Positions 24,955 through 64,000 of a stretch of 64,000 nucleotides of DNA are shown one piece after another. The stretch spans positions 8,556,001 through 8,620,000 of the forward strand of contig NC_092348.1 in the NCBI RefSeq assembly GCF_963676685.1, read 5' to 3'. Every line of letters begins with the position of its first letter. Position 1 is the first letter of the stretch. Source of the DNA: Mytilus edulis (taxonomy: Eukaryota). The position numbers were made by a program, and so were the translations under genes. The notes below the pieces were generated by a model, which saw nothing but the letters and a program-made list of their open reading frames with translations, searched no databases and had not been told where the DNA came from.

Positions 24955-25745
24955 AAACAGCAACCCTTCATAAAGGAAATCCTGAAAAGAATCTTGAACT
25001 TTGGAATATAAGTATCAACTTAAGATGAAAGTTTATTATGAAGTTACGTTGCATGTCATGTCAAACATTTATCACATCTTGTAAACAAGGAATAATCTAA
25101 AGGAACTAAACATGTAGGTGAATTAATCTTACTTGACAAAGATAGATAGTACAAATGCATTTCCTACCGTTTTAAAATGTTTCAAACTGAAAGAAGCGAT
25201 AAGTACTTTAACCTTTTCATCTCTTAGTTTGTGCAATGAATGTCAAAGCGAGTTGTATAATGTATCATTTTTTACGTTCATTATACTAGTGATTGACATT
25301 GCAAGACGAAACGGTGCTCATTTGTGACGTTTGATTTATCTACCTGACTTTCACAAGATGAAAAATAAAGCCAGTCAAATTGAACCTCCTTTTATATTCT
25401 TATACCAATTAGGTTTGAAAAATCGAGACACATAATTGATCAGCAATTTTTCATTACAAAATTAAATATATCTTTTTCTTTTTAGCAGATTTATATGGTA
25501 TCAACTAGAAACAAATAATGGATTTAATAAAAATGTATTTTTTTGGATGAAATTTGACACCTGCTCTTCACCGTAAATTTAAACACGCTGAATATAAACA
25601 CAGGTCACAACACTTGTTTTGTTAGAATTTGGTGCAGTTGGTCATGCCCAACTAACATAACTGATTAGAATTTAAAAACAAGGTCAAATTAAAACAATAA
25701 CACATTTTAACAAGGTTAACATTTATGTCGACTGTTTAAAAGAAA
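24955..25745 (-). pseudogene. Block paralogous to 40265-41105; possibly a decayed LRR-gene relic
   Basis: Collinear similarity with 40265-41105 (e.g. gcaacccttcataaaggaaatcctga; cacttgttttgtt...atttggtgcagt.ggtcatg). Minus-strand fragments such as LKHFKTVGNAF look LRR-like, but there is no open frame. Confidence 0.35.
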
Positions 25746-26272
25746 GTTTTGGGCTATTTTGTTTGTTTTCAAAAATAAAAGATAACGAAAAAAAAAATCA
25801 GATAAATAATACTTGTGTACATCAATTTTAATAAAAGTTGCCTACTTCTTTTGCACATATCAACAAAATGCTGTTTTACTATTGAAATGATAAATAATAC
25901 CAGAAGTATTATCTGGTACGCCGGATTAATGTTTCATCTACACGAGACACATTAGTTGTGCATGAATTAAAAACCAATTGAAGGTCAAATCAATAACTAA
26001 GTTAAGAAGCATTGAAACCCATAAGAAAAGAAACATTAATGTTCCTACGAATATTTCATTATATGCCCTGTAAATTTTCAGGAAATGAGTATATTAATTA
26101 TAAACTCATTACATATGAAAGAGTTAAAAATGTGTACGTCAAACGAGTGTTTAGTCTACAAAAGACTCAGCAGTGACATTCGAATTAAAAACGATATTGA
26201 GTTAAAATACATAACGACATTGAAGGGCACTGAAGAAAAAAATATCAATTCAAATACAGCTTAAATGTAATA

Positions 26273-26490
26273 AAAAGTAAAAATCACAAAAATACTGAAC
26301 TCCGAGGAAAACTCAAAATGGAAAGTCCTTAATCAAATGGCAAAATCAAATGATAAAACACATCAAATGAACGAACAACAACTGTCACATTCCTGACTTT
26401 GTATGGGCATTTTGAAATGTAGAAAATAGTGGATTGAACTTGGTTTTATAGCGCTTAACCTCTAACTTGTATGACAGTCGCATCAAATTA
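26273..26490 (+). repeat. Interspersed repeat, 'aaatcacaaaaatactgaactccgaggaaaa' family
   Basis: Other copies at 33620-33740 and, in reverse, about 22210-22340, 41530-41627 and 43395-43481. Confidence 0.8.
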
Positions 26491-27710
26491 AAGATACGCG
26501 AAAGATACAAATTGGATATTCAAACTCATAAGTCTAAGACATCGTCACAAATGTCATGTCAACAACCGAAAAATGGATAAAAAAAATAGCAGTACACAAA
26601 ATAACAAAATAGAAAACCAAAGATTGAGCAAAACGATCCCCATCAAGTACCGAAGGGGATCTCAGGTGTAACAGAATGATAAGAGGATCATTCTATACGT
26701 CATGTTGCTCCTGTAAATACAAACAATATGATAATTCTAAATCGGTTGGTCACATTCGAGGAAAGGTGAAAGTCACATTCGAGGAAAGGTGAACGGAATT
26801 GTGGTTACGATAATTTGAACATATTCGTCGTCATCTGTGAAACAGATATTCCATAACGGTTAACCAAATCGTAATTGTGTCCATCAATTTTCGAATGGAT
26901 GATTTTAACAACGCAAATTTGACCTCTTTGTTCAAAATCTTCCCACGATAAGTGGAACATATCCGTTGTCCCTTGAGGTAAACATATATGTTCAAACACA
27001 AATTCACTCATTCAATTAAATAAATAAAGGCACCAGTAGTATACCGCTATTCGAAAGTCATAAATCGATATAGAGAAATAATACATGCATTATAAATAAA
27101 GGCAACAGTAGTATACCGCTGTTCGAAATTCATAAATCGATTGAGAAAAAAAACCAAATCGGGGTTACAAACTAAAACTGTGGGAAACGCATCAAATATA
27201 ACAGGAAAACTACAACACAACAGAAACACAACCTTAAAATGTAACTCACACAGAAATGAACTTTAAATAACAATGTCAATTTTCATGACTTGGTACAGGT
27301 CATTTTAAGAAAAAAAATGTTGGGTTGAACCTGGTTGTGTGGCATGCCAAACCTACCGCTTTAATGGCAATGCTAAATATAACATTAAAAAGACAGGATT
27401 ACATGACAGAATTACAATACAGATAAATGGGAGAAAAAATAGGATTGAGAAACACGTGAATAATAGCTAACACAAGGTATCAGGTTTAAAATTTAATACT
27501 CCAGACGCGCGCCTCGTCCACACAAGACCAACCAGTGACGTCCAGATAAGATCCTGGAATTAATCGCTTCTTTAGGCATTTATATAATTCATCAATCATA
27601 TTGACAAACTTGATAACAAATCATTTATCTCTAAAACAACATATCTCATAGGTTTTCATAATGTTGCAGAATTAAACTCCACACACAATTATTGGTATAG
27701 CAACGATTTG

Positions 27711-29600
27711 TTAATCATTTTGTTTAGTGCTATGTCTAAATGATATTGCATATTTCAGTTTATCCCAAAATAAAACATCTTCCATTTTAAGATATGTTTG
27801 AGAATTGAGACAACTTTTCAAATCAGGATCAATATTATCTAAAGTTATATAACCCTTCAACACAATTATCAAATGACGACCTTTAGCATGTAGACTTTTC
27901 CTCAAAGCTGTTCGGAATTCCATCATGCACCATTCACTTTTTAAGAAATCATTGGTTATAAGTAAGATGGTGTGATAGCTGTTTTCAACACTGTAGAATA
28001 TATTATCAGCTATAGTATTACCAACTATAAAATCTCTATGATGCAGACAGAGCCTGCATGCTCTCCCAGCTTCCTCTGACTCCAACTTGGGTAAAGCTGT
28101 ATGTATAACCCAGTCAACATCCTTCTCGCTGTAGGCAATAAATGCATCATATTCTTTTTCATCGACTGTGACACTTCTGTGTTCACATGGACAGTTTATA
28201 TTAAGTCGAGTAAACAAAATAACTTTGATCATATTCCTGAAATAGATTGTCAATAAAGTTATGATGACCAATGTTATTGTTATGATGCTCAAAACAACTA
28301 CTTGAAAGTTTACAACTGTCTCCTTGTTACAGTTAAGATCTGTAGCGGACATATTTATCAGCTTACGTCCACGGACGTTCGAGGGTTTTGAACACTTTAG
28401 AGACCCAAGGTAATCATAAACTTTTGGCATAGTCTTTGAAGATAGATATGCCATTACTTCAAGTACTCCACAATCACATACGAACGGATTTTCACTGATG
28501 TCGACTTTAATAAATTCGTGAGTTGAAAATGAGTCTATCATACGTTTTGTTAGTGAAGTTATATTATTACGCCGTAAATCTATTGTTACGACTGATTTGT
28601 TTTTTGTTACAGCTAAACCGTAATCTGGTATCATAGGAAGGACTTGTATGTTATTATTGGAAAAGTCTATATATTCCATCACTGGGAAGCGTCGTTGCCA
28701 TCCTTGCATTTTATAAAAAGTGTCAAACATCCCATTATTAGAAAAATTCAATATTTTGAGATTTTCTGCAACGTCGGTATAAACTATCTTATTGATGTCA
28801 TTCTTTCTTAGATTCCCTTTTTGCCCACTTATTTCATAAACCTCAAGGTTGTTGTACAAACAGGCTCTCTTCTGTGTGTTAAAATAATGGTTATGTTGAT
28901 TGAGTGCAGTGCTGAAGTCATACAACTTACAGTTTTTCTCCAAATCTTCAAATTTCACCTTTGTTCCCCTTCGAATAATGGAAAAAGCATTCTCCGGTCC
29001 ACATTCTGCAGCTCTTGTTATAGCAGAGTTAGCTTTTGAAATTGAGTCATAAAATTCTCCAACCCTTTGACTAACAGTAACGTTGTCCATTTGAAGATAT
29101 TTAATTGTGTCGGGAATGCTGTTTATCAACTGATTCTTGTAATCGGTCCTGTAATCTTTAATTCGACAGTCTTTGATGTAAATTTTATTTAGTTTGTCTG
29201 CTCTGAACGGCCATGGAAAGTATACTACACTATCTTCACAAGTGACGGATAAGTCAAATCTGATATTTGATGATATTTTATCTGTAAAATTTCTAAATTC
29301 TGATAACTTGATACTGAAGTCATCTTTAACAATACATACAATATCAAAGTCAGTATAACCAGTATGTGATATATTACATAGGCTACTCCAGTTCTCAAGG
29401 CTTTCAAACTCATTCATAACATAAGACAAATGTGTGAATGAATCTATGGAACTATTCATCTGCTGTTGTTTTATAACCAAATTGTTTCCCCTTTCGTTTG
29501 TAACGGTAACGATATTAAGTCCAAGTCCAAGTAAAGGAAAAATATTAAGAACAGTGACATAGTATCTCATTCTGAACTGTTTCCTTGTATTATATTTCAT
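27711..29600 (-). CDS. Toll-like receptor A (single exon; signal peptide, Cys-containing N-region, few LRRs, LRRCT, TM, TIR)
   Basis: 629-aa ORF. LRRs LKILNFSNN, MEYIDFSNNNI, IDLRRNNITSL; LRRCT ENPFVCDC...LKCSKP; TM VVVLSIITITLVIITLLTIYF; TIR YDAFIAYS, LCLHHRDFIVG, SEWCMMEF, FWDKLK. The likely start is the second Met (29570), which aligns with the paralog starts. Confidence 0.95.
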   Translation of the reverse strand: MKYNTRKQFRMRYYVTVLNIFPLLGLGLNIVTVTNERGNNLVIKQQQMNSSIDSFTHLSYVMNEFESLENWSSLCNISHTGYTDFDIVCIVKDDFSIKLSEFRNFTDKISSNIRFDLSVTCEDSVVYFPWPFRADKLNKIYIKDCRIKDYRTDYKNQLINSIPDTIKYLQMDNVTVSQRVGEFYDSISKANSAITRAAECGPENAFSIIRRGTKVKFEDLEKNCKLYDFSTALNQHNHYFNTQKRACLYNNLEVYEISGQKGNLRKNDINKIVYTDVAENLKILNFSNNGMFDTFYKMQGWQRRFPVMEYIDFSNNNIQVLPMIPDYGLAVTKNKSVVTIDLRRNNITSLTKRMIDSFSTHEFIKVDISENPFVCDCGVLEVMAYLSSKTMPKVYDYLGSLKCSKPSNVRGRKLINMSATDLNCNKETVVNFQVVVLSIITITLVIITLLTIYFRNMIKVILFTRLNINCPCEHRSVTVDEKEYDAFIAYSEKDVDWVIHTALPKLESEEAGRACRLCLHHRDFIVGNTIADNIFYSVENSYHTILLITNDFLKSEWCMMEFRTALRKSLHAKGRHLIIVLKGYITLDNIDPDLKSCLNSQTYLKMEDVLFWDKLKYAISFRHSTKQND

Positions 29601-30530
29601 GGGGAACAGGATGTATCTAGATCCTTAAAAAATCAACTGGCCAAAAAATGCAAAACGACTTTATTTTCTTTCAGCAAATATAATGCTCTTAGTCTATTTC
29701 GTTTGTTTTCTTCATTTCAGAAGACATAAATAAGGATAATAATGTTGTGAACAAACTTGAAGTAATGATAAATAATAATGTTTACGGAACTGTGTATTAT
29801 CATTTAGTAAAACATATAACACAGACAGTTGTAAAGAATTTCCGCAAACTACGTTTTTTTCTGAATTAATTATGATAAATAGGTAACATTTAATTAAAAT
29901 CTGCAAAAACAAAAACAAAATCAAAACCATTACCCGTCTGCATTAAAACCTTCGCGGATACTTTATTTTCAAAATTGGAAAAAAACCCACATTGATTGCA
30001 AACAGTTTTAAAGAATATTTTTGTTTTTGATTTTGTGCCATATGGCACTGGGTCGATGCCACTGCTGGTGGAGTTTTAATTCCCCGAAGGTATCACCAGC
30101 CCAGTAGTCTGTGCTGACACGAATTATCATTGATATGGTCATTTTTTTAAATTAACTGTTTCCAAAACTTTTAAATTTTTGAAATACTAAGGCTTTTCTT
30201 CCTCAGTACAGGAATAGATTACCTTAGCTGTATTTGTCAAAACCTTTAGGAATTTTGGTCCTCAATGCTCTTCAACTTCGTACTTTATTTGGCCTTTTAA
30301 ACAATTTTTGGATTCGAGCGTCACTGATGAGTCTTTTGTAGAAGAAATACGCGTAAGTACAAAATTTTAAACTGGTATCTATGGTGAATTTATTTAGAAA
30401 AAGAAAATTTTTGTTTACGTTCTGCATGAATATGTTTTTTGCTAGACAATTATATAATATTTTTTATCTGCACATCCACCTAGTCAGAAAAGCATTTAAC
30501 AATGTAGTAACTTATGTTCTGTAATGTCAA
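29601..30530 (-). promoter_or_regulatory. Upstream block conserved among the three minus-strand TLR paralogs
   Basis: 29601-29965 aligns with 48050-48410 and 59590-59960; 30410-30530 aligns with 48530-48650 and 60070-60160. A repeat is inserted at about 30050-30392 in this copy only. Confidence 0.6.
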
Positions 30531-30925
30531 AGAGAGACTGTTGCTCTATAGAAATCTTCCGTTTGCATAAAATAGCAAGGATTCGTCATTTCTTTTTCGA
30601 ATTTGGGAACGACACTATAATATTTTTATGATTTACTAGCATTCTTTTTTTTTTTAACATTACCTGTTATGGATTGTATGTAAATATAAAAAAGATATGG
30701 TATGATTGCCAATGAGACAACTATCCACAAAAGACCAAAATAACACAGACATTAACAACTATAGGTCACCGTACGGCCTTCAACAATGAGCAAAGCCCAT
30801 ACCGCATAGTCAGCTATAATAGGCCCCGATAAGATAATGTAAAACCTGAATATAAATGTTTTAAACGATGTGTTGTACATTTTAAACTTTCAATCGAACT
30901 TAATACATAAATATCATTCGACAAT

Positions 30926-30948
30926 CCCCCCCCCCCCCCCCCCCCCCC
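30926..30948. repeat. Poly-C homopolymer
   Basis: Run of about 23 C. Confidence 0.9.
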
Positions 30949-31609
30949 CAATTACGTTAAAAGAAGTGAAATTGAAAAATACCTATGTTTCGATGTTCAT
31001 TTCTCGTAAAGTTATTTTGCAAAAGCAGACATAGAAGCGAATTTGCTCTCGAATCTTGTGATTAACGCTAGAAACAAGACCAGATGTGTTGAAACGGTCA
31101 ACATTTCTTGATTGCATGCGTCACAAGCCATATATGCGATATAGACTTACTTTAATAATTGTGACTTAGGTAGAGAGTTGGCACTCATACCACATCTGCT
31201 TATGTTTATGAATAATGTTGTCACGTGATCCTCTCCTCCATCTTTCTAAAATGATAATATGTAAACAGAAGTGATCTGAGTTTGTATACTATGTTGATTC
31301 CATATATTCGTTGATCGTTGAATACTAAACTCATCATAGATACCAGAAATGAAAATTAGCATTTGCCCCAGACGCGCGTTTCGTCTACAAAAGACTCATC
31401 AATGACGCTCGAACAAAAGAAAACGAGAAAAGGCCAATTAAAGTACGAAGTTGAAGAGCATTGAGACCAATAATTTCTATTATTTGGCCTTTTAAACATT
31501 TTTTTATTCGAGCGTCACTGATGAGTCTTATGTAAACGAAACGCGCGTCTGGCGTAAATATAAAATTTTAATCCTGGTACTTATGATGAGTTTATCCTAA
31601 AAGTTAAGT

Positions 31610-32486
31610 AGTCCAGTCAAACTAACTTTGAACCTCAAACTAATTGCAACAGAAAATGTTTTAATTTTAATCTATAGCATTAAGCCCCAAATATACACAG
31701 AAAAAGTCCCATAAATTCTACCTTTAGGAAAACCAAAATCAGCATTTTCAATTTGTTATAGAAATTAACATTGGAAAGGGAGATAACTCTGTGAATTAGT
31801 ATTTTTTGTCAGTTTTTGATTGCTTATCTTAAAATTCGTGTAAAGTATGATGCTTTGCTGGGGTTATGAGTTCGTATTTGGCTATATTATGTAATCTACT
31901 GCGCATGAAATGTACAAGAACCGAAGTGATATCGGTTTTTAAAATTTTTTTTGCACATTTTTCATCAAAGAAAAATGTATGGCTTTGTGACCATTTTCAA
32001 AAAATAGCATTAATACTTCGTATAAGTTATATTTGTAAATTATATTTCTTCAGCATCTACCTTGTTTAAAGAAACATTATTCAATTTGAGATTCTTTACA
32101 TTGACATGCTGACAAATCTAATAAATGGTCAACTGATTTATTATGAAATCTATGTTGTAGCTTGATAAAAGATACGAAAACACATTTAGAGTTGTTTGTT
32201 ACATTCTAAAGACGGGTTCAATATCAAGAATCAATGCATTCTGTTGAATAGAGACGGTAACGTTCTAATTTTGTATCAGATTTTATTGATATTTCTGCCT
32301 TTTTAAGAGAGCTTCAATGCAAATCTCCATAGGAATTATAAAATCATGATTTTTTAGTTTTCTCAAGTTTTTGTTGGACTTTTTTCTGTGTATATTTGGG
32401 GTATAATGCTAAAGGTTAAAACTTAAAAAGTTTCTGTTGCAATTACTTCAAGGTTGAGGTCAAATGTATGCTAGATTGACTGGACT
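31610..32486. mobile_element. Non-autonomous element with ~100-bp imperfect TIRs
   Basis: agtccagtcaa...taattgcaacagaaa...ccccaaatatacacagaaaaagtcc versus ggacttttttctgtgtatatttgggg...tttctgttgcaatta...ttgactggact. Confidence 0.75.
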
Positions 32487-36300: not shown

Positions 36301-36561
36301 TCTTTGTTTAGTTAAGACCTTTTTAGCCGGATGTTATTTTTGGGACGTTTTAGACGACTTTTATAACATTTTAAAACTTCTGTCACCGTACAGCATACAT
36401 TGATATTTACAAAGAAATATTATCCGTTTTGTTAATTATTTTGTTTATTCTTGTGTTTTCATTTTTAGAAGATGAATTGCTTTCTGATAGTGTTCGATCG
36501 TTTGTTACCATATAATGTTAACAATACGTGAATATTTCTTTTAAAAAATACAAGTAATTCT

Positions 36562-36830
36562 CAGACAAATGAACTATTATATAATATGATTTATAACACG
36601 TGTGTTTTCCCGGATTTTGATACAGATGATTCTAAGAATTGTAACAAAATACGTATAATTAATCTAGCTGCGTGTTTATTTGAATGTAAATATTGTAGGA
36701 ATGAAAAGTTTACCTGCTAGTTCGTTTGATTCAACGGTCATAATTTCAACATGGTGAGTATACTTAGTTTAGTTGATGGTTTATTTGATGATATTGTTTA
36801 CGTACGTACTTAGATTTAATACATGTTCTG
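36562..36830 (+). promoter_or_regulatory. Conserved block ~0.8-1.0 kb upstream of the TIR-less TLR; duplicated at 63330-63610
   Basis: aaatgaactattatataa.atgatttataacacg...cccggattttgatac.gatgatt..aagaattgta is present at both sites in the same orientation. Confidence 0.55.
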
Positions 36831-37592
36831 AACACATATTTAAAACTATATAAAACTATATAAATGAATGTATGGTAATTTAGCTGTGATGATTTAAAGT
36901 GAATAATAACTTGTAATATTGAATATATCACTTTCCGACCAAATAATTCAGTGATTCACGAAGCCAAAATATTCAGGAATCCGAAACAATAAACACATAT
37001 AGCAGAGTTGAAGCTACCAAAAAGTTTACAAAATTATAACGATTTAAATCATTGAGCACACGATTTAATCAAAAGCAGAGAATTTTTATTGGAGTTCATT
37101 ACTTTTGTTTTTTTTATAAATTTAAATTGCGAGAATTAAAATTTTATAAGTTAACAGTGTATAATATCATCCTCAAATGGTGTCTTTAAGACGTTTGGTA
37201 TAAATTTACCGATTGTTTTATCAACAATAGCAGATTCTGCTCTGTATTTGTCATGTTTGTGCAGTATGGCATTGAAATAGCTAGGGGTATCCCCATAAAT
37301 TTTATTACGTAGCCATGTACAAGAAAGAACGAAATATCCGTCTCTGTATAACCCTGTTTTGCTAAACTAAGGAAATACCAAAGAACTTAATTTAAATAGT
37401 CGAGGAAATAAAAACAAACATTGTGTTAACATGAATATTCAAACTTGCAGATGTTTTCTTTATTTGTCCTGTAACAGTTAGATTTAATCCAGGTGCTCTC
37501 CTAACAGTGCGAAGAAAACCACAACGGTTCCTGAACTCAGTAACATAACAGATACAGATACAGAAGTAGTTTTAATCATAGATTAGGCCATT

Positions 37593-38993
37593 ATGGGGTT
37601 TTGTTCGTATCAATCATTCCGATTTTGTGTTGATCTCCTACTGTTTTTATTATTTGCTAATCATGTGACGACTGAAAACAAAAACAAGATTCAATCAGCA
37701 AAGAAATTATCTAAACTGTCAGGGTATGTAACCATGGTAACGGATAATAATACGTTTTCTATCTTACAACCATGGCAACAGTTTTGTAAGGTAAATGAGT
37801 TACAAAAACAAAACAAACCCGGTGAATACTATATCGAGATTATTTGCAATATCAACAACAATGTTTTAAACTTTCTCGATTTTCGACGCTTCACATCCAG
37901 AATTAAAGCAGATATGTTATTTTCCGTTGACATAACGTGTGGACAGAATGGAAGCATTTTCTTTCCATACCCGGGCCGAGCACGTCTCCTCCATTCATTA
38001 CGAATATCAAACTGTGTTTTGAATGGATTTACATCAGAAGCAACATCGGATGATATTGATACAATACCTGATCGTATAAAATATTTCACTTTGGTCAATT
38101 CCGTGATATATATGACTCAAAATGATTTTCAACAGTTTCAAGGAGCAAAACATTTGAATCAAGCTTTTCAGTGTGGTAATGTAAACGCTGTAAAAATAAT
38201 TGAAAACAATATATCTTGCTGGATTGGTAATATGAATAAACGTTCACGATTAGAAACCTTTCAAGCGCGACCTAATTTCCGTGATCGCACCTGCACCTAT
38301 AAATATCTTCGACATCTCCATAAAAGTTTTTCAATGATACAACCGTTTACTCGGCAGATTGATAAATCTATGTATCCGAACATTGAAACGCTTAACTTTA
38401 GTGCAGCTAATATGATAGAAACACCAAAACATTTACAGGAATGGAGGCTAGGAGCAAAGGATTTGAAATATTTAGATCTTAGTCACAACTTAATAGAAGA
38501 TGTTTTTCCTATAATATGTCATGATAAATACAAAGGTGATAGCCCTCAAGGATTTGTAGATTTACGTTATAATAACATATCATCACTCACACAATACGGA
38601 ATAAGAACATGCTTACGTGGTATTTGTCATAAACTAACGGTTGATATACGAAATAATCCGTTTATGTGTGATTGTGGTGTAAAGTACTTTCAAGACATTT
38701 TCCAATATATAGACAATCGAATGGCATCATCTTATTATGATGTGAGAGAAAATAATTTCTCTCGTTATAAATATCTGTATGGTCTTAAATGCTACAATCC
38801 ACCTTCACTGCGAGGAAGAATAATTTCTAAATTATCACTTAGTGAAATCGGGTGCAAGCCTAAATTACAAACAGTAACAAATGTTTCATCAGGGCCAATT
38901 ATAGCAGTGATGCTTGTTAGCTTTTTTCTTTGCGTGTGTCTGTTTGTTGGTATCAGATATAGAGAACAAATTGCTGTAAGTTGTAGTAAGTAG
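37593..38993 (+). CDS. TLR-like LRR transmembrane protein B lacking a TIR domain (466 aa)
   Basis: Signal peptide; ectodomain homologous to TLR A/D (FFPYPGRA ~ FPWPFRA; IPDRIKY ~ IPDTIKY); LRRs LKYLDLSHNLI and VDLRYNNISSL; NNPFMCDC...LKCYNPPSLRGR; TM IIAVMLVSFFLCVCLFVGI; stop about 12 residues after the TM. Confidence 0.85.
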   Translation: MGFCSYQSFRFCVDLLLFLLFANHVTTENKNKIQSAKKLSKLSGYVTMVTDNNTFSILQPWQQFCKVNELQKQNKPGEYYIEIICNINNNVLNFLDFRRFTSRIKADMLFSVDITCGQNGSIFFPYPGRARLLHSLRISNCVLNGFTSEATSDDIDTIPDRIKYFTLVNSVIYMTQNDFQQFQGAKHLNQAFQCGNVNAVKIIENNISCWIGNMNKRSRLETFQARPNFRDRTCTYKYLRHLHKSFSMIQPFTRQIDKSMYPNIETLNFSAANMIETPKHLQEWRLGAKDLKYLDLSHNLIEDVFPIICHDKYKGDSPQGFVDLRYNNISSLTQYGIRTCLRGICHKLTVDIRNNPFMCDCGVKYFQDIFQYIDNRMASSYYDVRENNFSRYKYLYGLKCYNPPSLRGRIISKLSLSEIGCKPKLQTVTNVSSGPIIAVMLVSFFLCVCLFVGIRYREQIAVSCSK

Positions 38994-38999
38994 TAGTTC

Positions 39000-41105
39000 G
39001 TACTGTCGACCATGCTATAATTTCACGGTTTCTAAGAATGACAATGTGAATGCAATTAACTATACTGATATGACTTTTTAAATGTTTATGTTAATGATTG
39101 GAGTCCTGAGCTTTCAACCTTCACAATCACATCAGTTACTGTAATAATAAAACCATCGATACTCACTGTTTTAACTGTATATTCAATCTAATATTTATAC
39201 CGCATAGCCAACAATGGTCTCATATAGTTTAGACTGAAGTTTATCATCTCGGACATAATCCTTGATATGATTTCACTATTCGACTGTAAAACACCAACCA
39301 AAGACCAATTCAATATAAAACATGTAAGCATATTCTTAATTCTATGGAGATGTTGTATACCGATCCTGGAACTGAGATACGACCCAGGTAAACGTATCGA
39401 TCCTTTTAGTCAACGTATTCTAAAAGTTTACCAAATCAACACTGTTCTTGGTAATGCATTAAGAGGTTGTCAAAAAGGTTTTCGAGGTACAGCAAAACAT
39501 AGCATCAGTGGAATGGTATTTTTATTCAACCTATTTTACTACATGACAGACACTTTATAGTCAGATGATAGTTATCAAAAGTATCAGGCTTATCATTTAA
39601 TACGCCAGGCGCGCTTTTCGTCTACATAAGACTCATCAGTGACGCTCAGATCAAATATGAAATATGCTGCAAATAATTCATGTATTGAGCAGATACTCTC
39701 ACATTTAATAAAGCGTAAAAACGAACATACGTCTACGTGAAGGGAACATAAGACATTCACATGTGTTGGTCAAATGAAATAAAGAAACATGCTTCTGCAT
39801 ATTCCCCATTATGTAGTAACTTGAATGATTTTCGTCTACTTTAGGACAACAGTAAAAATGACACTAGCTATCAAGCAGTCAAAGTGTAACGAAGTATAGC
39901 TCAACAAATTGCTCAGTAATTCTCCTTTGCCACTTAGTTCATTTAACTTTTTACTATTCATTTATCTGCACTATGATTCATATTACAGCTTTAAGATATA
40001 TGATTGAAAAAACTGGACAATTAAGGTTAAAAAAAAAACAATTTGGGGGGGGAGACTTTTTGTTATTTTTCAAAATAAGAAATGCTTATTCACATAAAAC
40101 AGCATCAAGCACAACGTATAAAATAACTAAATATAAATCAATTCATAAGGATGTAACAAATCCTGCATCTGATAATTGTCAACTCTGATATATAGTATAT
40201 AGCAACCTTTTGTGCAGGTGTTGAAAAAACGAGTTTTTTTTCTATAATTATGTAATATTGTAAATGAACAGCAACCCTTTTTAAAGGAAATCCTGATAAG
40301 AAACGTGAGTTATGAAATATGGGTATCAAAAAGATGAAACATTTATTATAAATATACGTTGCATGTCAAACATTTATCAAAAGTTGTAAACAAGGAACAA
40401 GCGTAAGGAACTAAAAATGCCGGGGAATTAATTCAAAGTGACAAAGATAAATTTAACATGTGCATTTCCTACAGACTTGAAACTTTGCAACTGAAATAAT
40501 GTAAAAGTTAATAGTTTTTTTAAGTTATTCGTCGCTTATTTTGGACAATAAGTGTCAACACGTATTATATGATGTCACATTTTACATGTATCTTATACAT
40601 GCGGTTTACATTGAATGTAGAAAAGGTTTCATATTTTTAACATGATCTTTTGTACTTCTTTTTCATAAAAATACTATAAATTAAATTTTTCAAGATGAAT
40701 TTATTTACTTGCATTTTTCTAGTTTAGATTTAAGGCGAAAACAAATTAAAGCAACCCAAAAATATCAAAACTTAAAACCAATAAAGTTAGACTATCGAAA
40801 AAATAAAAGGCGGTTAACTTCAAATGCAATAATAAAAATATCGATTGCATTTTTAGCAGTTTAATACGGTTATATGGTATTAATTGGAAATGAATAAGAA
40901 AAATAATAAAACCTATTTCGAAAATTCGACATCTGCTCTCCATCGTGAATGTAAACACGCTTAATATCACCATCACACTTGTTTTGTTTTGATTTGGTGC
41001 AGTGGGTCATGACTTAGTTACATAACTGAAGATGAATTAAAATCAAGGCCAAATTAAAACAATTACATATTGCTTGGAGTTATAAACATTAACTTCGACT
41101 GTAAC
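39000..41105 (-). pseudogene. Probable highly decayed TLR relic convergent with gene B
   Basis: Minus strand 39230-39180 reads KLYETIVGYAV*ILD*I (compare TIR start KKYDAFIAYSEKDVDWV); LIAFTLSFLE follows; LRR-like scraps lie further upstream; 40265-41105 is paralogous to 24955-25745. Confidence 0.35.
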
Positions 41106-46623: not shown

Positions 46624-48048
46624 TCATTTTTAGCCATGGCGTTGTCAGTTAATAAATCCATCATAGTCTTTCTCTACGTTAATGTCATTTCTGAATTCAC
46701 ATGGACAGTTGATATTGAGTCGCGTAAATAAAATAACATTGATCAAATTTCTGAAATAGATTGTCAACAAAGTTATAACGAACAATGTAATTGTTATGAT
46801 GCCCATAACGAAGACTGGAAAATGGATGACAGTTTCCTTGTTGCAGTTTAGTTCTGTTGGAGACAGACTGATGAATTGTCGTCCACGGACGTTTGAGGGA
46901 TTTTCACACTCAAGCGACTCTAGGTAATCATAAGCTTTTGGCATTGTCTTTGAAGATAAATATTCCATTACTTCAATTATTCCACAGACACAAAAGAACG
47001 GATTTTCAGTGATATCGACTTTAACAAATGCGTATGTAAAGAACGAGTCTATCTTACCTTTTGTTAATGAATTGATTTTATAACGCCGTAAATCTATTAT
47101 AACAACTAATTTTGTATTTTTCGATTTTAATCCGTTATCTAGTATTATTGGGAGGACTGTTATGTTGTTATCGGAAAAGTCTATATATTCCATTTCTGGG
47201 AATCGTAGTCGCCATCTTTGTAGTTTATAAAAAGAGTCAAATATACCATTACCAGAAAAATTCAAAATTTTAATATTTTTTGCAACATCTGTATGAAGAA
47301 TCTTATTAACATATTTGTTTTTAAATCCTGCATTCCACTTATTTCAAAAACCTCAAGGTTATTGTACAAACAGGTTCTCTTCTGGGTGTTAAACAAATGA
47401 TTATACTGCTCGAGTGCAGTGCTTAAATTAAATAAGTAATAGGTGTGCATATCTTCAAAAAAAATCTGTATTCTTCTCCTGATAATGGAAAAAGCATTTT
47501 CCGGTCCGCATTCTGCAGCTCTTGCTATAGACGATTTAGCTTTTGGTTTTGAGTCATAGTTTTCTCCAAGCCTTTGAATAATTGTAACGTTGTCCATATA
47601 TAGATATTTTATTGTGTCGGGAATTCTTTCTATCAATGGATTATTGTAATCGGATTTGTAATCCTTACTTTTGCAGCCTTTAATATCAATTTTATTTATT
47701 TTGTCTGCTCTTTACAAGTGACGGATAAGTCAAATCTGATATTTGATGATACTTGATTGGTAAAATTTCTAAATTCAGATAAATTTATAATGGAATTACA
47801 TTTAATGATAAACACAATGTTAAAGTATGTATGACCAGTTTGCTATATATTACATTGGATACTCCAGTTCTCAAGGCTTTCAAACTCATTCGTAACGTAA
47901 GTAAAATTGGCAATTGTATCCACTGAATCAATCATCTGAGGTTGTGATGCTACCAAATCATTATTCTTTACTTTTTTTTAACTTTAAAGATATCTAATGC
48001 AAGTTCAAGCAAAGTATAAATATAAAGAAACGTGAGATAGTTTTTCAT
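46624..48048 (-). pseudogene. TLR C pseudogene (paralog of A/D), TIR deleted
   Basis: ATG at 48048 in the conserved cagttcagaATG context; early frameshift in an A8 run, in-frame TAG near 47845, deletion of the FPWPF segment near 47712, and a frameshift between ORFs 47262-47636 and 46645-47265. Homology ends at YDGFI, the start of the TIR. Confidence 0.9.
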
Positions 48049-49216
48049 TCTGAACTGTTTCCTGGAAAAATATTTTATAGTATACCGGATGATCTAGATC
48101 CTTATAAAATCAACAGAACTTGAAAAGCAAAACAAATCTTATTTTGTTCAGCAAACATAATGCTCATAGTTAATTTCGTTTGTTTTCTACATAACTGATA
48201 CATAAAGTATATAAATAACAAAGAAAACAAACTTTAATGAAACGTTTACGGAACTATGTACTATCATTTACTAAGACATAATACACAACAAATCGTAAAT
48301 GTTTTCCGCAATATAAGTTTTATCTGGAGTAATTATGATAAATAGGTGACATCTAAAATAACACTTCATAACATAACTAAACAGGCTGTGTTGAACCTTT
48401 ACGGATACTAGATTCTAAAAGAGCATCTTCCCTTGCATAGCAGAGAAAACATTTATTTCGTCACTAAATTACTAAATTGCAGCTTTATTTGCACTAGCGC
48501 CATACGGTATTTCGTTGCTCGCTAATTTATGGTTACGTTCTATATAAATATCTTTTACTAGACAATTATATAATGTATTTTTCATCTGCATACCCAGTCA
48601 ACCAGAGAAGAACTTAAAATTGCGGTAACATATTTTCTGCAATTTCAATAAATGAAGCTTGAAGCCCAGATTTGTCTCCAGTTTTCATTGATTTTAAATT
48701 ATTTCGTATCATCCTGAGATGCTATAAGAAACACATTAGCAGGTTTGCAGAATACTCTACAAAAACAAAGAATGCACACGCTGAAATGTCTCGCCTTATT
48801 TACTAATCATTGATATTATGTTGATAGTCCTAAATATAATTGACCATTAACCAAGAAAACTAAACAGTGATCAATGAACCATGAAAATGAGGTCAAGGTC
48901 AGATGAACCATGCCAGGTAGACATGTACAGCTAACAATTCTTCCATGCAACAAATATAGTTGACTTATTGATTATAAATTAAGAAAAACAGACCAAAACA
49001 CAAATACTTAACACTGTGCAATGAACCGTGAAAATGAGGTCAAGATCAAATAAAACCTGTGCGACTGACATATAGTTCATACAATATTTCCATACACCAA
49101 ATATAGTTGACCTATTGCATATAGTATTTGAAAAAAAATGAAACCAAAACTCAAAAATTTAACTATAACCACTGAACCATGAAAATGAGATCAAGGTCAG
49201 ATGACACCTGTCAGTT

Positions 49217-55311: not shown

Positions 55312-55558
55312 CACATTTTTGAGTGTGAAAGGAGTACAGAAAGACATTTGATTGGTCTTCAGTCCTCAGAAACACTTCCAGCAAAGCCATGTACACACTT
55401 TTTAGTGTGAAAGGAATACAGAAAGACATTTGATTTGTCTTAAGTCCTCAGAAACAATTCCAGAAAAGTCATGTACACATTTTTGAGTGTGAAAGGGGGT
55501 ACAGAAAGACATTTGATTGGTCTTAAGTCCTCAGAAAGAATTCCAGGAAAGACATTTG
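55312..55558. repeat. Tandem repeat, ~82-bp unit x 3
   Basis: cacattttt(g)agtgtgaaagg..tacagaaagacatttgatt.gtctt.agtcctcagaaa starting near 55312, 55394 and 55476. Confidence 0.9.
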
Positions 55559-57240: not shown

Positions 57241-57540
57241 TAAGGAATGACTGTAATATTTTTTCTGTCTATGAAGAAATAATATAAAAAAATTTGGTGC
57301 ACACTGAATAACGCGCGTAGCGTGTTATTTAACAGTGTGCACCACATTTTTTATGTTATTTTGAATAGACAGAAAAAATATTACAGTCATTTCTTATAAT
57401 TTAATTCTAAATTCCATTTTAAACCGTAGAAAACCATGAAAAAACGTTGATGACGTCACGGTCACATGACTAAATTATGTTTACGGGCTGATAACAAAAT
57501 AACGTCAGCCAATCAGTAGACGCGTTACATCTTAAATTAA
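57241..57540. mobile_element. Palindrome-containing non-autonomous element directly 3' of TLR D
   Basis: About 155-bp imperfect palindrome at 57241-57396, followed by TGACGTCA (57451-57458) and CCAATCAG. Confidence 0.7.
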
Positions 57541-57727
57541 ATCATATATATCAACTATATCAGAGCGTTTCCTTTAACCATTCTAAATTAGAAAGTCATT
57601 GACTATATTTGAATGCATAAATAACTTGATTAAACATGTATCAAAAACCTACTAATAGACCCTCATTCACACTAACATACTAGAACGTGCATTCAGTTAT
57701 ATGTACAAACAAATAATATCCATTTTG

Positions 57728-59587
57728 TTATTTGTTTTGACTTTTCTTGTGTCTAAATGATATTCCATATTTCAGTTTATCCCAAAATAACACATCTCCA
57801 ATCTTAAGATAGGTATGCGAATTGAGACAACTTTTCAAATCAGAATCAATATTATCTACAGTTATATTACCCTTCAACACAATTATTAAATGTCGACCTT
57901 TATCGTTTAAACTTTTCCTCAAAGCCGTTCTGAACTCCATCATACACCATTCACTCTTCAAGAAATCATTGGATATAAGTAAGATGGTGTGAAAGCTGGT
58001 TTCAACACTGTTGAATATGTTATCAGCTATAGTATTACCAACTATAAAATCTCTATGATGAAGACAGAGTCTGCATGCTCTCCCAGCGTCCTCTGACTCC
58101 AACTTTGGTAAAGCTGTATGTATAACCCAGTCAACATCTTTCTCGCTGTAAGCAATAAATGCATCATATTTTTTACCTTCGTGTGCGACATTTCTGAATT
58201 CACATGGTAAGTTTATATTGAGTCGAGTAAACAAAATTACTTTGATCATATTTCTGAAATATATTGTCAAAAAAGTTATGACGAACAATGTTATTATTAT
58301 GATGCCCATAACGACGACTGGAAAATTGATGACCGTTTCCTGATTACAGTTTAGTTCTGTCGACGACAGAGTTATCATCTGACGTCCACGGACTTTTGAG
58401 GGATTTTCACACTTAAGAGTTCTGAGGTAATCATAAGCTGTTGGCATAGTCTTTGTAGATAAATATTCCATTACTTCAATTATTCCACAATCACATAAGA
58501 AAGGATTTTCACTGAGGTCGACTTTAACAAACTCGTGAGTTGAGAACGAGTCTATCATACCTTTTGTTAATGAAGTAATATTATTACGCCTAATATCTAT
58601 TAATCCTACTGATTTTGTCTTTTTCACAGTCATTCCGTAATCTCGTATCATTGGAATAACTTTTATGTTATTATTGGAAAAGTCTATATATTCCATCACT
58701 GGGAATCGTAGTCGCCAGCCTTGTAATTTATAGATAGTGTCAAACATTCCGTTACCAGAAAAATTCAATATTTTAAGATTTTCTGCAACGTCTGTATGAA
58801 CAATCTTATTGACATCATTTTTTTCTAAATCTTTCATTCCACTGATTTCATAAACTTCAAGGTTGTTGTACAAACAGGTTCTCTTCTGAATGTTAAAATA
58901 ATGATTATATTGCTCGATTGCAGTTTCGAGGTCAAACATAAAATAGTTGTGCATATCTTCAATGTTCGCCGTTGTTCCCCTTAGAATAATAGAGAAAGCA
59001 TTTTCAGGTCCACATTCTGCAGCTCTTGTTATAGGCGAGTTAGCTTTTGACAATGAGTCGTATAATTCTCCAATCCTTAGAATAATAGTGACGTTGTCCA
59101 TTTGTAAATGTTTGATTGTGTCGGGAATGCTGTTTATTAACGAATTCTTGAAATCAGTTCTGTAATCTTTAATTCTACAGTCTTTGATGTAGATTCTATG
59201 TAGTTTGTCTGCTCTGAACGGCCAAGGAAAGTGAATGATACCATCTTTACAAATAACGGATAAGTCAAATCGGATATGTGACGATACATGATTCGTAAAA
59301 TTTCTAAATTCTGATAACTTTATACTGGAGTTACCCTCAACGATACACACAATATCAAAGTCAATGTGACCAGTTTGTGATATATTACATAGCCTACTCC
59401 AGTTCTCAAGGCTTTCAAACTCTTTCATAACATAAGAAAAATTGGTAAATGTATCTATGGACCTATTTGTCCGTTCTTCTGTTGCCACCAACTCAATACT
59501 TCTTCCTGTTGTAACGGAACAGATGTGTAATGCAAATCCAAGTCCAAGCAAGGGATAAATGTTTGAAATTGTGATATCATTTTTCAT
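57728..59587 (-). CDS. Toll-like receptor D (single exon, 619 aa), close paralog of TLR A
   Basis: Same architecture as A: LRRs, ENPFLCDC, TM VVVMGIIIITLFVITFLTIYF, TIR YDAFIAYSEKDVDW...HRDFIVG...SEWCMMEF...FWDKLK. Confidence 0.95.
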   Translation of the reverse strand: MKNDITISNIYPLLGLGFALHICSVTTGRSIELVATEERTNRSIDTFTNFSYVMKEFESLENWSRLCNISQTGHIDFDIVCIVEGNSSIKLSEFRNFTNHVSSHIRFDLSVICKDGIIHFPWPFRADKLHRIYIKDCRIKDYRTDFKNSLINSIPDTIKHLQMDNVTIILRIGELYDSLSKANSPITRAAECGPENAFSIILRGTTANIEDMHNYFMFDLETAIEQYNHYFNIQKRTCLYNNLEVYEISGMKDLEKNDVNKIVHTDVAENLKILNFSGNGMFDTIYKLQGWRLRFPVMEYIDFSNNNIKVIPMIRDYGMTVKKTKSVGLIDIRRNNITSLTKGMIDSFSTHEFVKVDLSENPFLCDCGIIEVMEYLSTKTMPTAYDYLRTLKCENPSKVRGRQMITLSSTELNCNQETVINFPVVVMGIIIITLFVITFLTIYFRNMIKVILFTRLNINLPCEFRNVAHEGKKYDAFIAYSEKDVDWVIHTALPKLESEDAGRACRLCLHHRDFIVGNTIADNIFNSVETSFHTILLISNDFLKSEWCMMEFRTALRKSLNDKGRHLIIVLKGNITVDNIDSDLKSCLNSHTYLKIGDVLFWDKLKYGISFRHKKSQNK

Positions 59588-60160
59588 TCTGAACCGTTTC
59601 CTTCAAATATATTAGATGGGATACCGGTTGTTATCTTCGTCCCTTTAAAATGAGCAAATATATTTATATAAAAAACTGAACGACTCTATTATTTTTTAAA
59701 CGAATAGAAAGCTTTAATCCGTCTGTTAAAGATACATAAAGTATATAAATAGTTCATAAAATAAGTATAATGACGATTTAAACAAAATTGGATACAATAA
59801 TAAATAAAAAGTTTACTGAACTGTACTAAAACCAATTACAATGACAGTCGTAAATGTTTTATCTGTAGTCGTTATGATAAATAGTTAACATTTAAATTAC
59901 ATTTGAAAACATTAAAATCTAACAAAATCAGAATTATCAAATCATCACGGATACTAGATTCTCATAGGACGAATTCTTTTTTGTATATCAAAGCTTTTAA
60001 AAATGTCCACATCACTAATTAAAAGCTTACTATGCAATAAAACCAACGTGTATTATTGGGATACAAAATATTGGTTACCGTCTGTATGAATATGTTTTGC
60101 TTTGGTATTATATTTAATATTTTTATAAGCACTTCATGTTAGCCTGATAAGAATTTAACA

Positions 60161-61462
60161 ATTTAACGGTATGGCAATTAGAGTTGTATATTTCAACAGT
60201 ATGAGACCGAGTGTTGTTTATTTTAACAGAATGAAAACTAATATTTTAACGGTATGACAACAAAAGTTGTAAACTTTAACTAAATGACAACAAGAGTTAT
60301 ATAGTGTAACGGTATGACAACAAGAATTGTATATTGTAACGGTATGACAACGAGAATTGTATATTGTAACGGTATGACAACAATAGTTGTATGTGTAACG
60401 GTATGACAACAAGACTTGTATATTAACACGGTATGACTATGAGAGTTGTATATTTAACGGTATGACAACAAGAGTTGTAACTTATAAATGTATGACAACA
60501 AGAGTTGTATATTGTAACAGTATGGCAACAAGAGTTGTATATTTTAACGGAGTGACAACAAGAGTTGTATATTGTAACGGTAAGACAACACGAGCTGTAT
60601 GTTGTAACGGTAAAGCAACAAAAGTTGTATATTTTAACGGTAGGAGAACAAGAGTTGTATATTTTAACGGTATGCCAACAAGATTTGTATACTTTGACGG
60701 TATGGCAACACAAGTTGTATTATTTAACGGTAAGGCAACAATAGTTGTATATTGTAACGGCATGACAACAAGAGTTTTATATTTTAACGGTGACAACTAG
60801 AGTTGTATATTGCAGCGGTATGACAACAAGAGTTGTATATTGTAACGGTACTTCAACGAGAGTTGTATATTGTAACGGTATGACAACAAGAGTTGTTTAT
60901 TTTAAAAGAGTCACAACACGAGTGATATATTTTAACGGTTTGACAACACGAGTGATATATTTTAACGGTATGACAACAAGAGTTGTATATTTAAACGGTA
61001 TGACAACAAGAGTTGTATATTGTTACGGTATGGCTAACCGCTTGTATATTAACACGGTATGACAATGAGAGTTGTATATTTAACACGGTATGACAACAAG
61101 AGTTGTTTCTTGTAATGGTATGGCAACACGGGTTGTTCACTATAATGGTATAATAACAAGAGTTGTATCGTGTAACGATAAAGCAACAAGAATTGTATAA
61201 TGTAATGGTATAACACCAAGAGTTGTATATTGTTATGGTATGGCCAAAATAGTTATTAGATATATACAGGTTATGAGTGCCAATGAGACAACTCTCCATC
61301 CTAGTCACAATTTATAGTAAAGTAAACCATTATAGTTCAAGGTACATGTTCACGGTATGACAAAAAGAGTTGTATATTGTAACGGTATTGCAACTAGAGT
61401 TGTATATTTTTACGATATGGCAACAAGAGTTATATATTTTAACATTGTTTATTCTAACGGTA
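60161..61462. repeat. Satellite, 30-bp unit (ggtatgacaacaagagttgtatattgtaac), roughly 40 diverged copies
   Basis: Tandem array at 60161-61257, interrupted by a repeat fragment at about 61258-61350, then resuming to about 61462. Confidence 0.95.
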
Positions 61463-63329
61463 TAGAAATTTCAAATGAAGAAGAGAGAAACATTCATAGG
61501 TCATCGTACAGCCATCAACATTACTAAAACCCTGTACATGAAAATAACGACCTAATTTATAAAAATCCATCAACGTATGACTTTGGTAAATAACAAACTA
61601 TTCAATTAAGTTGTAAATGTTTAGGCTCAATAGATCCATACAGAGCACGCACCACTAAAACTGGACAAAAATAAGAAAAAGCGCCGCTATAAGACATTTA
61701 CCATTTGCAGTTATTGTAAAATATAAATTAAAGCCAATAATATCGACATCGCCGATATGTGTAGCTGACTATTTTGAATTTAATATAAGCGGCCATCTCA
61801 GTACAATAATCTCTATCAGACGACAAGATTTTAATTTTGACATTAAAATTTCCCTCACCTTAGCAGCAATATATCATCTTCACCTGTATGTAGTATATAT
61901 ATTTCCCAACTCAATCGGTATTCAAGATCTTGCAGCTACTACACTGAGTTTATTAAACGTCACCAGTTTCTGAGCATAGAACTGATGAACCGGGGTGATG
62001 TCAAATAATGTCTTTTCCTTTTTATATTAAAAAAAAAGTAATTCGGAAGATACCAAGACCTTTGTTCGCTTGTAAAAAGTTGTCTCATTGGTAATCATAC
62101 CACATCTTCTTTTTATATAAATTTGTTAATAATTATCAACTTCATAAATAATACATGATGGTTTTGAAGTATGCATTATAGGTACTGACGTTGTTTGTCA
62201 TCAATGCGTTCACTTATGCATCAACAGAAACAATCAGCAATAATACTTAGGTCACTTAAATTTTCGCGACAGAAAATTGCGTTGCAGTCACGGACTATTT
62301 TGTTTGTACTGAACAATCAAAAGGTAGAACAAGTCTGAGTTCTCAGCAATGTCAGGTGAACGGTGCAATACAGGCGATGTTTTTTATTTTGATAGGAATG
62401 AGATCATTGCCTTTTTCTTCAAAAACCTATATAAAAACACACAGGAAGAAAGACAGACTGAGGTGATATTTGATTATTTTGATAAAACATGTGTATAAAA
62501 TTGAAAATGTTAATGTTGCATGTTATAAGAATTGTTCATATTCTTATTTTATATCGTCAAACATTAAGCAGGACAATCTGACTATATGATAAAAATAGAG
62601 TTAAATGAACAAATCTACAATAATAGTAGCCATTTCGTATCTAGGACAATTCAATGGACCATATTAGGCGTGGCTTTATAATTTGTTTTATAAATCGTTA
62701 ACAAAACAAACTTATAAGGAAATAGACGCAGTGAAAGAGAGTGAGTTCATATTACATCGTTCGCAAGTATGCTCGTGGGTTAATAGATTGGAAACTGCTA
62801 AGCTATGTTTTAAACTAATAATCTATACAAGCAAGTACATAACAGTCCGATTATGATATAAAACCTCGGCAGTTGAGTGAAGATAGCTAGAATTATATTC
62901 CTGAATGGTGGAAGAAGGCAATTTATCGATACTGAGTCTGCCAGTCATATTCACTTAATTATGGAAATATGAAAGAATCAAAATTGAAATTTGATACATA
63001 GCAACATAAGAACTCCTTATTTATTGGAAAACTTATAATATAAAATTATCCAATATCCAGAGTGGACTAATTTGTTTTGATGTGAAGAATCGTACCATGG
63101 ATATTGTATTCAATTTTCATTGTATTTTCATAAGTTAGATTGTTTTCTGATTGTTTTATACTTGTTTTCTTGAAAACAAGTTGTTTGTTGGTCTCTTTCT
63201 AATTTCTATCAGTTTGAATGTGCCTCTGGTATCTTTTGCCTCTCTTTTAATCGCTTTAAAAGCGGTCTTAATTTGCCTTATAATAATGACAATTTGGTAA
63301 TTCTACAAAAGAAGGATGCACTAGACCTT

Positions 63330-63610
63330 GATAAATGAACTATTATATAACATGATTTATAACACGATATTTATCCCGGATTTTGATACGGATGATTCCA
63401 AGAATTGTACCAGTATATGTATAATTAAACTAGTTGTTTGTGTACTTTATTTTAACATTTTGAGGATGATTTGAATTTTAACATAGTAGGAATGAAGATG
63501 CTAGTTAATTCGATGCGAGTTTTCGAATTAAGCAAGGTAGATTTAATCATTTAAGTTGCTAGTTTATTTGATAATTGTTTTGAAGCTTTTACATATTATA
63601 CTTTAAGCAT
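63330..63610 (+). promoter_or_regulatory. Paralog of the block upstream of TLR-like gene B
   Basis: Collinear with 36562-36830. Confidence 0.55.
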
Positions 63611-64000
63611 GTATATATCTTTTAATTGTAATACTTTATGGCAATTCGACTGAGACGATTCAAAGTATATGACAACTAATAACATTGAATAGAACACATA
63701 AGCTTCTCATTCCAATGTTATTATTCAGTGATGCTTGAAGCACAAATACCCAGGAACACGGGACCATAGACAAACGGCGCAGAGTTGACACCACATAATA
63801 CACGAGAAAGTTATGAAGAGCGAAATGTTTGAACGCTTCCAGAGACACGATTGAAATAAATGCATGCATTTTAACTTTTCAAAACCTCCATGGAGATATT
63901 ATAGCACAAGAGGGCCAAGTATATGTTTTACACATACTTAAAGTATATTGTATAAGAGAATGCATAGTAATGTTAATAACATTTTATTTTGAAAGAATAA

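What the first reader, a model, noticed from the sequence alone, without database searches (positions are those of the whole stretch)
24955..64000. Candidate paired-receptor module: TIR-bearing TLR head-to-head with a TIR-less TLR, duplicated as a unit
Seen: the order [block X 24955-25745] - TLR A(-) - [block Y 36562-36830] - TIR-less B(+) recurs as [X' 40265-41105] - psiC(-) / TLR D(-) - [Y' 63330-63610]. Y lies about 1 kb upstream of the B start codon, so a B-type paralog is predicted to start shortly after position 64000. B shares the unusual ectodomain of A/D but is much more diverged than A is from D, so the two classes split well before the module duplication. Inference: a co-inherited divergent signalling/co-receptor (or decoy) pair, analogous to TLR4/RP105 or to plant head-to-head immune receptor pairs. 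I am not aware of this being described for molluscan TLR clusters.
Basis: partly seen in the sequence, partly recalled or inferred. Interest (0 to 1): 0.75.

Follow-up and report, generated by a model that had tools for sequence, protein, structure and literature searches.

The report
Mussel TLR paired with TIR-less sibling
In mussels, a signalling Toll-like receptor gene sits back-to-back with a related receptor gene that lacks the signalling domain and the pair was copied as a unit; the tail-less receptor is likely a co-regulated decoy or helper, and receptors like it fall outside a published mussel census that required the signalling domain.

Summary
An intact TIR-less paralog B' (77% to B) starts 1.66 kb past the window, followed by a TIR-bearing gene E. 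The blocks X-A-Y-B and X'-psiC/D-Y'-B' are collinear, with matching ages (dS 0.40 and 0.37; non-coding 0.33-0.37). B is under purifying selection (dN/dS 0.34), folds as an LRRNT-LRR-LRRCT solenoid with one membrane helix, and its relatives in other Mytilus records are TIR-less. Accession order matches the same gene order in three assemblies.

Three corrections. B is a truncated copy of the E lineage, not of A (AU p=0.0004). Y travels with A-type genes: 6 of 8 copies have no B beside them. TIR loss is routine in this family: psiC, 9 of 19 ORFs translated in this genome, and 46 of 94 family representatives.

So the unit is real and old, but an obligate A-B receptor pair is not shown. A co-regulated decoy or accessory receptor is the most likely reading (0.45). 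First exons, co-expression and binding remain untested.

The parts
24956..25735 (.). Block X, non-coding, 3' of A; duplicated as X'
27711..29570 (-). Gene A: 619-aa TLR (LRR solenoid, membrane helix, TIR), coding region in one open frame
   Evidence: contigs of run X2 lie on the CDS
36505..37352 (.). Block Y (core 36564-36700): conserved non-coding block on the 5' side of both A and B; inferred shared promoter / first-exon region
   Evidence: promoter role not tested
37451..37592 (+). 5' untranslated part of B's coding exon, after a splice-acceptor-like site at 37449-37450
   Evidence: sequence; a 243-base X2 contig lies from 37450 with 51 letters not placed in the listed piece
37593..38993 (+). 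Gene B: 466-aa single-pass LRR protein, 12-residue tail, no TIR
   Evidence: X2 contig 38795-39112 runs through the stop
40267..41102 (.). Block X'
46645..48084 (-). psiC: A-type pseudogene with three frameshifts, one stop and an internal deletion of almost the whole TIR
57728..59587 (-). Gene D: 619-aa TIR-bearing TLR, 76% to A
63273..64000 (.). Block Y' (runs 198 bases past the window end). Beyond the window follow gene B' (+, G000:C5:8621659-8623068, 469 aa, TIR-less, 77% to B) and gene E (+, G000:C5:8632982-8634985, 667 aa, TIR-bearing, closest TIR-bearing relative of B found in this genome, 40%)
   Evidence: for Y'; for B' and E

Best explanation
B and B' are intact, selectively conserved, TIR-less single-pass LRR receptors that likely arose as truncated copies of the neighbouring TLR gene E, lie head-to-head with TIR-bearing A-type TLRs across a conserved block Y, and likely act as co-regulated non-signalling decoys or accessory receptors for this TLR family. 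Shown: anatomy, collinear duplication, matched divergence, purifying selection, no TIR. Supported by tree tests: descent from the E lineage. Inferred history: an ancestral A(-)/E(+) divergent arrangement; E duplicated in tandem; the copy next to Y lost its TIR; then X-A-Y-B duplicated once, with an extra A-type copy (psiC) decaying. Inferred mechanism: Y drives both directions, so B is made with A; B binds the family's ligand or a family ectodomain but brings no TIR, so it would dampen or tune signalling, as RP105 does for TLR4. The target may be E as much as A.
For: Collinear chain X, A 3' flank, A, Y, B versus X', psiC, D, Y', B'. dS A/D 0.40 (95% bootstrap 0.33-0.48), dS B/B' 0.37 (0.29-0.48); non-coding distances 0.33 (X), 0.33 (Y), 0.37 (B 5' part). 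dN/dS B/B' 0.34 (0.24-0.49), like A/D 0.33. All 12 B-clade rows lack a TIR; Pfam finds none in B, B', P0001, P0004, P0034. The B clade joins E (100/98); grouping B with the A clade is rejected, p-AU 0.0004. The longer tail of the M. trossulus B aligns with E's linker and first TIR strand. Accession order: M. coruscus CAC5415040 E, 41 B, 42 A-type, 47 B, 50 A-type; M. galloprovincialis VDI78758 A, 57 B, 55 D, 54/53 B'; M. edulis CAG2184651/52 A, 53 B, 54/55 A-type/D pieces, 56 B'. Both B genes found in the genome face an A-type gene. Model pLDDT 84; best match 5T4, Z 16.1, rmsd 4.1, 249 aligned. One run (X2, RNA by guess) holds contigs of both A and B, with zero depth in five repeat-free bins outside the genes.
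Against: No functional data. Y is not B-specific: 6 of 8 copies lie at C5:10.37-10.47 Mb with no B coding sequence in the 130 kb fetched, so its conservation may reflect A's promoter alone. The intact A-type gene on C14 has neither Y nor B in the 40 kb fetched. Three raw RNA runs (about 6% of each read) gave almost no depth on either gene. Accession order gives no strand, and gene order is expected to be similar among Mytilus species, so linkage is weak evidence of function. The two M. coruscus B copies are not one-to-one orthologs of B and B' (p-AU 0.0003-0.0004), while D groups with M. coruscus A42 (97/93), so the history includes conversion or a further duplication. E's exact sister place is less firm when P0057/P0059 are added (89/92; 81). 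Pairwise dN/dS averages over the whole time since duplication.
Confidence: 0.45

Rival explanations
1. Adjacency is a historical accident. B is a functional LRR-membrane protein with its own job (ligand capture, adhesion, or signalling through an unrelated partner, like 5T4 or FLRT) and was carried along when a block of about 15-28 kb duplicated.
For: B comes from E, not A. One inversion plus one block duplication explains the layout. Y copies exist without B. TIR-less membrane forms are named in scallop, oyster and abalone records. The fold resembles 5T4, FLRT and Nogo receptor as much as TLRs.
Against: Both B genes found keep an A-type gene opposite. Y stays alignable from 36505 to 37352, into B's upstream region. 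M. coruscus also has two B and two A-type models interleaved.
Confidence: 0.3
2. Obligate paired receptor: A and B form a heterodimer in which B senses or stabilises and A signals, so the two are inherited as a module like plant head-to-head NLR pairs or RLK/RLP partners.
For: Matched divergence of A/D and B/B'. 2 of 2 B genes face an intact A-type gene. The A-type copies at C5:10.37-10.47 Mb that lack B are all TIR-less or broken.
Against: The intact C14 A-type gene has no B beside it. B's nearest TIR-bearing relative is E. Trees of the A and B copies do not mirror each other in M. coruscus.
Confidence: 0.2
3. B is a decaying truncated TLR duplicate with no present function (birth-and-death debris).
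For: psiC and several copies at C5:10.37-10.42 Mb are such debris. B alleles differ in where the tail stops. Raw RNA depth was near zero in three runs.
Against: Open frames of 466-491 aa in this genome and in M. edulis, galloprovincialis, trossulus and coruscus records. dN/dS 0.34. Contigs in run X2.
Confidence: 0.05

Closest known systems
Bivalve Ls-type / X-group TLRs (PMC4346834, PMC10279657)
   Same: Short ectodomain, few canonical LRRs, LRRCT motif, single coding exon, tandem clustering (A, D, E).
   Different: B and B' have no TIR; the mussel census required LRR + membrane helix + TIR, so such genes were excluded by design. Divergent pairing is not mentioned in the parts read.
RP105 (CD180) and TLR4
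   Same: A TLR-like ectodomain with a membrane helix and no signalling domain; RP105 is described as a TLR4 homologue and inhibitor (PMC3699456, start of abstract).
   Different: No MD-1/MD-2 cofactor sought here; ectodomain about 370 aa against about 600; no interaction shown. RP105 is not head-to-head with TLR4 (recalled).
Plant head-to-head NLR pairs and RLK/RLP partners (recalled; PMC6709784 seen only as a search listing)
   Same: Divergent orientation around a shared upstream region; two old, different clades duplicated together.
   Different: Surface LRR-TIR receptors, no NB-ARC, no integrated domain; the coding regions are 8 kb apart; dependence not shown.
5T4 / FLRT / Nogo receptor LRR proteins
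   Same: LRRNT-LRR-LRRCT solenoid of similar size; top structural matches, Z 15-16.
   Different: About 15% identity; B nests among TIR-bearing mollusc TLRs by sequence.

Membership tests
Canonical TLR (genes A, D, E) | Extracellular LRR domain | tested here: met
   Pfam LRR hits below cut-off; model of A has a repeating-strand ectodomain; the homologous B model matches LRR structures
Canonical TLR (genes A, D, E) | Single membrane helix | tested here: met
   hydropathy 2.9-3.0; helix 422-443 in A
Canonical TLR (genes A, D, E) | Intracellular TIR | tested here: met
   PF01582 E 4e-11, 3e-12, 4e-18
Canonical TLR (genes B, B') | Intracellular TIR | tested here: not met
   no Pfam TIR; tails of 12 and 15 aa; no TIR remnant by tblastn after B or B'; X2 contig runs through the stop
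Ls-type / X-group TLR | Short ectodomain with few recognisable LRRs and an LRRCT | tested here: met
   about 415-445 aa before the membrane; no LRR family reaches its Pfam cut-off in A, D or E; LRRCT cysteines conserved
Ls-type / X-group TLR | Placement in the published TIR-domain clade | not tested
   the papers' sequence sets and supplements were not read
RP105-like accessory receptor | TLR-derived ectodomain, membrane anchor, no TIR | tested here: met
RP105-like accessory receptor | Binds and modulates a signalling TLR | not testable with these tools
   needs co-immunoprecipitation and reporter assays
Head-to-head paired immune receptors | Divergent adjacent genes of two clades, inherited together | tested here: met
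   2 of 2 B genes; collinear duplication; matching accession order in three assemblies, strand unknown there
Head-to-head paired immune receptors | Shared bidirectional promoter and co-expression | tested here: inconclusive
   Y is 5' of both genes; one run holds both; first exons not mapped
Head-to-head paired immune receptors | Mutual functional dependence | not testable with these tools
   needs genetics; the unpartnered C14 gene argues against strict dependence for the whole A class

The most novel reading that the evidence does not exclude
Mollusc short-ectodomain TLRs form a three-form system (signalling, membrane-anchored TIR-less, secreted), and the Mytilus A-Y-B unit is an animal counterpart of plant paired receptors: two ancient receptor clades transcribed from one bidirectional promoter and working as an obligate sensor/signalling heterodimer.
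Probability: 0.2. Interest if true: 0.78.

Novelty: new variant of a known kind. Interest (0 to 1): 0.52.

Why it matters
Mussels have the largest reported TLR repertoire, and how so many receptors are kept in check is open. The census read here (PMC10279657) required a TIR, so conserved TIR-less members are outside it; in my sample they were about half of this family (46 of 94, partial models included). A divergent TIR+/TIR- unit with a defined non-coding block gives a small, direct test of decoy or co-receptor control in an invertebrate: one promoter reporter and three receptors.

Tried and rejected
B spliced to a downstream TIR exon: a donor-like site lies just before the stop, but an X2 contig runs through it, tblastn finds no TIR between B and psiC or between B' and E, and database models end the same way. 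Rejected.

Y as a B-specific marker: rejected. Y or X as interspersed repeats: not supported (lower-bound searches). B as a truncated copy of A: rejected. 'Unusual' ectodomain as a new fold: rejected; it is a degenerate LRR solenoid; the wide structural search was not run.

Complex prediction of the A and B ectodomains: no answer, score 0.00 in two single-sequence runs; no evidence either way. Run search: no RNA holder listed on record. Exact E protein not in the collection. Earlier findings: three look-ups, none returned.

Seven paper searches showed no listing on head-to-head or TIR-less mollusc TLR pairs. Subscription papers are not in the library and no supplements were read, so absence from print is not established.

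Full report
1. Observation. The window lies at G000:C5:8556001-8620000. It is a Mytilus mussel by homology: B is 97% identical to a protein named M. edulis. The ORFs are as reported: A (-, 619 aa from Met) and D (-, 619 aa) with Pfam TIR, B (+, 466 aa) without, and psiC broken into four frames. X/X' and Y/Y' are real and far above chance (E 1e-85 and 8e-51). The genome search found X only at these two places.

2. The prediction. Searching the genome with B gave 23 matches from 70 candidates scored. The best non-self match starts at extended window coordinate 65659: B', 469 aa, 77% identical, no TIR. Next on the same strand is E (76982-78985), a 667-aa TLR with TIR and 40% identity to B. The order is X, A(-), Y, B(+), X', psiC(-), D(-), Y', B'(+), E(+). 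No further member was found from 40 kb left of the window to 79 kb right of it.

3. One duplication. A sensitive alignment gives a collinear chain from X through the A 3' flank, A, Y and B to X', psiC, D, Y' and B'. A's 3' flank matches psiC's, so psiC is the positional twin of A and D is an extra A-type copy holding Y'. Synonymous distances are 0.40 (A/D) and 0.37 (B/B') with overlapping intervals; non-coding distances are 0.33, 0.33 and 0.37. These fit a single event. Against a simple story: the two M. coruscus B models are 88% identical to each other and are rejected as one-to-one orthologs of B and B' (p-AU 0.0003 and 0.0004), while D groups with M. coruscus A42. Gene conversion or an independent duplication is needed; I cannot tell which.

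4. B is a maintained, TIR-less membrane protein. dN/dS between B and B' is 0.34 (0.24-0.49), equal to A/D. All 12 B-clade rows in the tree lack a TIR; some are partial models, and P0001 has a duplicated tail and was cut to 466 aa. The AlphaFold model (pLDDT 84) shows an N-terminal helix, a repeat domain and one membrane helix. Residues 57-421 align to 5T4, FLRT2 and Nogo receptor at Z 15-16, rmsd about 4, and to TLR3, TLR4 and RP105 at Z 14-15. The 'unusual' ectodomain is a degenerate LRR solenoid. In run X2 (RNA by guess, found with B, so B's coverage is by choice) three listed contigs cover B, one through the stop, and five cover parts of A; five repeat-free bins outside the genes have zero depth. 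Three raw RNA runs, about 6% read, gave near-zero depth on both genes.

5. B comes from the E lineage. In a 52-row ectodomain tree the B clade joins E (100/98) and then another TIR-bearing gene, apart from the A clade. Forcing B with the A clade is rejected (p-AU 0.0004); B, E, P0057 and P0059 form one side with support 98. With P0057/P0059 present, E groups with them rather than directly with B, at modest support. The longer M. trossulus B tail aligns to E's linker and first TIR strand, and the same stretch lies out of frame after B's stop here. So B is inferred to be a truncated E-type TLR.

6. What Y is. Eight copies were found: two here and six at C5:10.37-10.47 Mb (6 by genome search; 2 more by local search). 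Seven of eight lie 1.1-7.0 kb upstream of an A-type gene or pseudogene in one orientation; two of eight have a B gene on the other side. Y is therefore best read as the A-type 5' block. It may also serve B: an X2 contig starts at an acceptor-like site at 37450 with 51 letters not placed, a donor-like site sits at 36753 and at the matching place in Y', and the bin holding Y has depth 0.49. The first exons were not mapped, so a bidirectional promoter is an inference. All eight copies contain a TTCN3GAA site (STAT-type, recalled) against 0.28 per kb background; the copies are related, so this is a lead.

7. Other mussels. Consecutive accessions on single scaffolds give E, B, A-type..., B..., A-type in M. 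coruscus (CAC5415040-50), A, B, D, B' in M. galloprovincialis (VDI78758-53) and A, B, D, B' in an M. edulis assembly (CAG2184651-56). M. californianus has adjacent B-like and E models (XP_052061737/8). Intervening accessions and strands were not seen. Conserved order among congeners is weak evidence of function.

8. TIR loss is routine. psiC lost its TIR by an internal deletion. Of 19 family ORFs translated from this genome, 10 have a TIR, 4 have a membrane helix only and 5 have neither; this is not a full census. Of 150 representatives hit by B, 94 covered most of the ectodomain: 48 with TIR, 14 membrane-only, 32 neither; 56 were dropped for short coverage, and truncated gene models may inflate the TIR-less share. 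Membrane-only members carry scallop, oyster and abalone names. Of three intact TIR-bearing A-type genes found, two have a B partner; the C14 gene has neither Y nor B in 40 kb.

9. Mechanism. Shown: anatomy, unit duplication, constraint, absence of TIR. Supported by tree tests: origin from E. Inferred: shared promoter and a decoy or accessory role. TLR signalling needs two TIRs brought together (established knowledge), so a co-expressed relative with the same ectodomain and no TIR would most simply compete for ligand or occupy a dimer. I give this 0.45, an independent role with accidental linkage 0.30, an obligate A-B pair 0.20 and debris 0.05.

10. Known context. PMC10279657 (read: parts 1-3 of 10, section 15, keyword passages) describes the X group (formerly Ls) as short TLRs with few canonical LRRs, states that mussel TLRs are single-exon and tandemly duplicated, and kept only proteins with LRR, membrane helix and TIR. 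PMC4346834 (passages) defines Ls TLRs and reports 80 of 83 oyster TLR genes with a TIR. PMC12521104 (passages) mentions oyster TLR homologs lacking membrane domains; the words decoy, co-receptor and heterodimer do not occur in it. PMC3367398 (passages) counted only sequences with intact TIRs. PMC3699456 (start of abstract) describes RP105. PMC6709784 was seen as a listing only. Seven searches showed no listing on this arrangement; supplements and subscription papers were not seen.

11. Verdict. A real, old, co-duplicated head-to-head unit with a conserved TIR-less receptor: a new variant of a known kind. Interest 0.52, held down by the lack of functional evidence and by how often this family loses its TIR.

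Noticed in passing
G000:C5:33979611-34053449 (L095-L098): Four family members of 364-378 aa with no membrane helix and no TIR, ending at the LRRCT; likely secreted forms (dN/dS 0.46 for one pair).
   Followed up: partly
G000:C5:10373000-10476000 (L083-L091, L036-L038): Second A-type cluster: six Y copies, at least three broken copies, one membrane-only gene (460 aa) and one without a membrane helix (438 aa); no significant TIR match in 130 kb.
   Followed up: partly
G000:C5:19359754-19361726 (L040): A-type gene of 469 aa followed by broken TIR remnants: TIR loss caught in progress.
   Followed up: partly
window 36540-36760 and the other seven Y copies: Each holds a TTCN3GAA site (STAT-type, recalled), several next to a second similar site; possible cytokine-inducible control.
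   Followed up: partly
TIR of A, D, E, C14 gene and C5:9.98 Mb gene: The BB-loop position that is proline in most vertebrate TLRs (recalled) is Val or Ile here, but Pro in the C5:92.8 and 91.06 Mb genes.
   Followed up: no
window 3295-3954, 5007-5787, 60149-61444: Tandem minisatellite arrays (about 80-, 39- and 30-base periods) that give spurious ORFs.
   Followed up: no
G000:C5:8620245-8621045 (L024), just past the window: An interspersed repeat inserted between Y' and B' doubles their distance relative to Y and B.
   Followed up: partly
G000:C5:8543930-8545633 (L033) and G000:C14:35354258-35355946 (L079): B-box/NHL (TRIM-like) ORFs lie 38 kb from A and 10 kb from the C14 A-type gene; the C14 one was judged by eye only.
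   Followed up: no
L061 (G000:C2:60925685-60931211 region): A second copy of the TIR-coding stretch lies just downstream of a family TLR.
   Followed up: no
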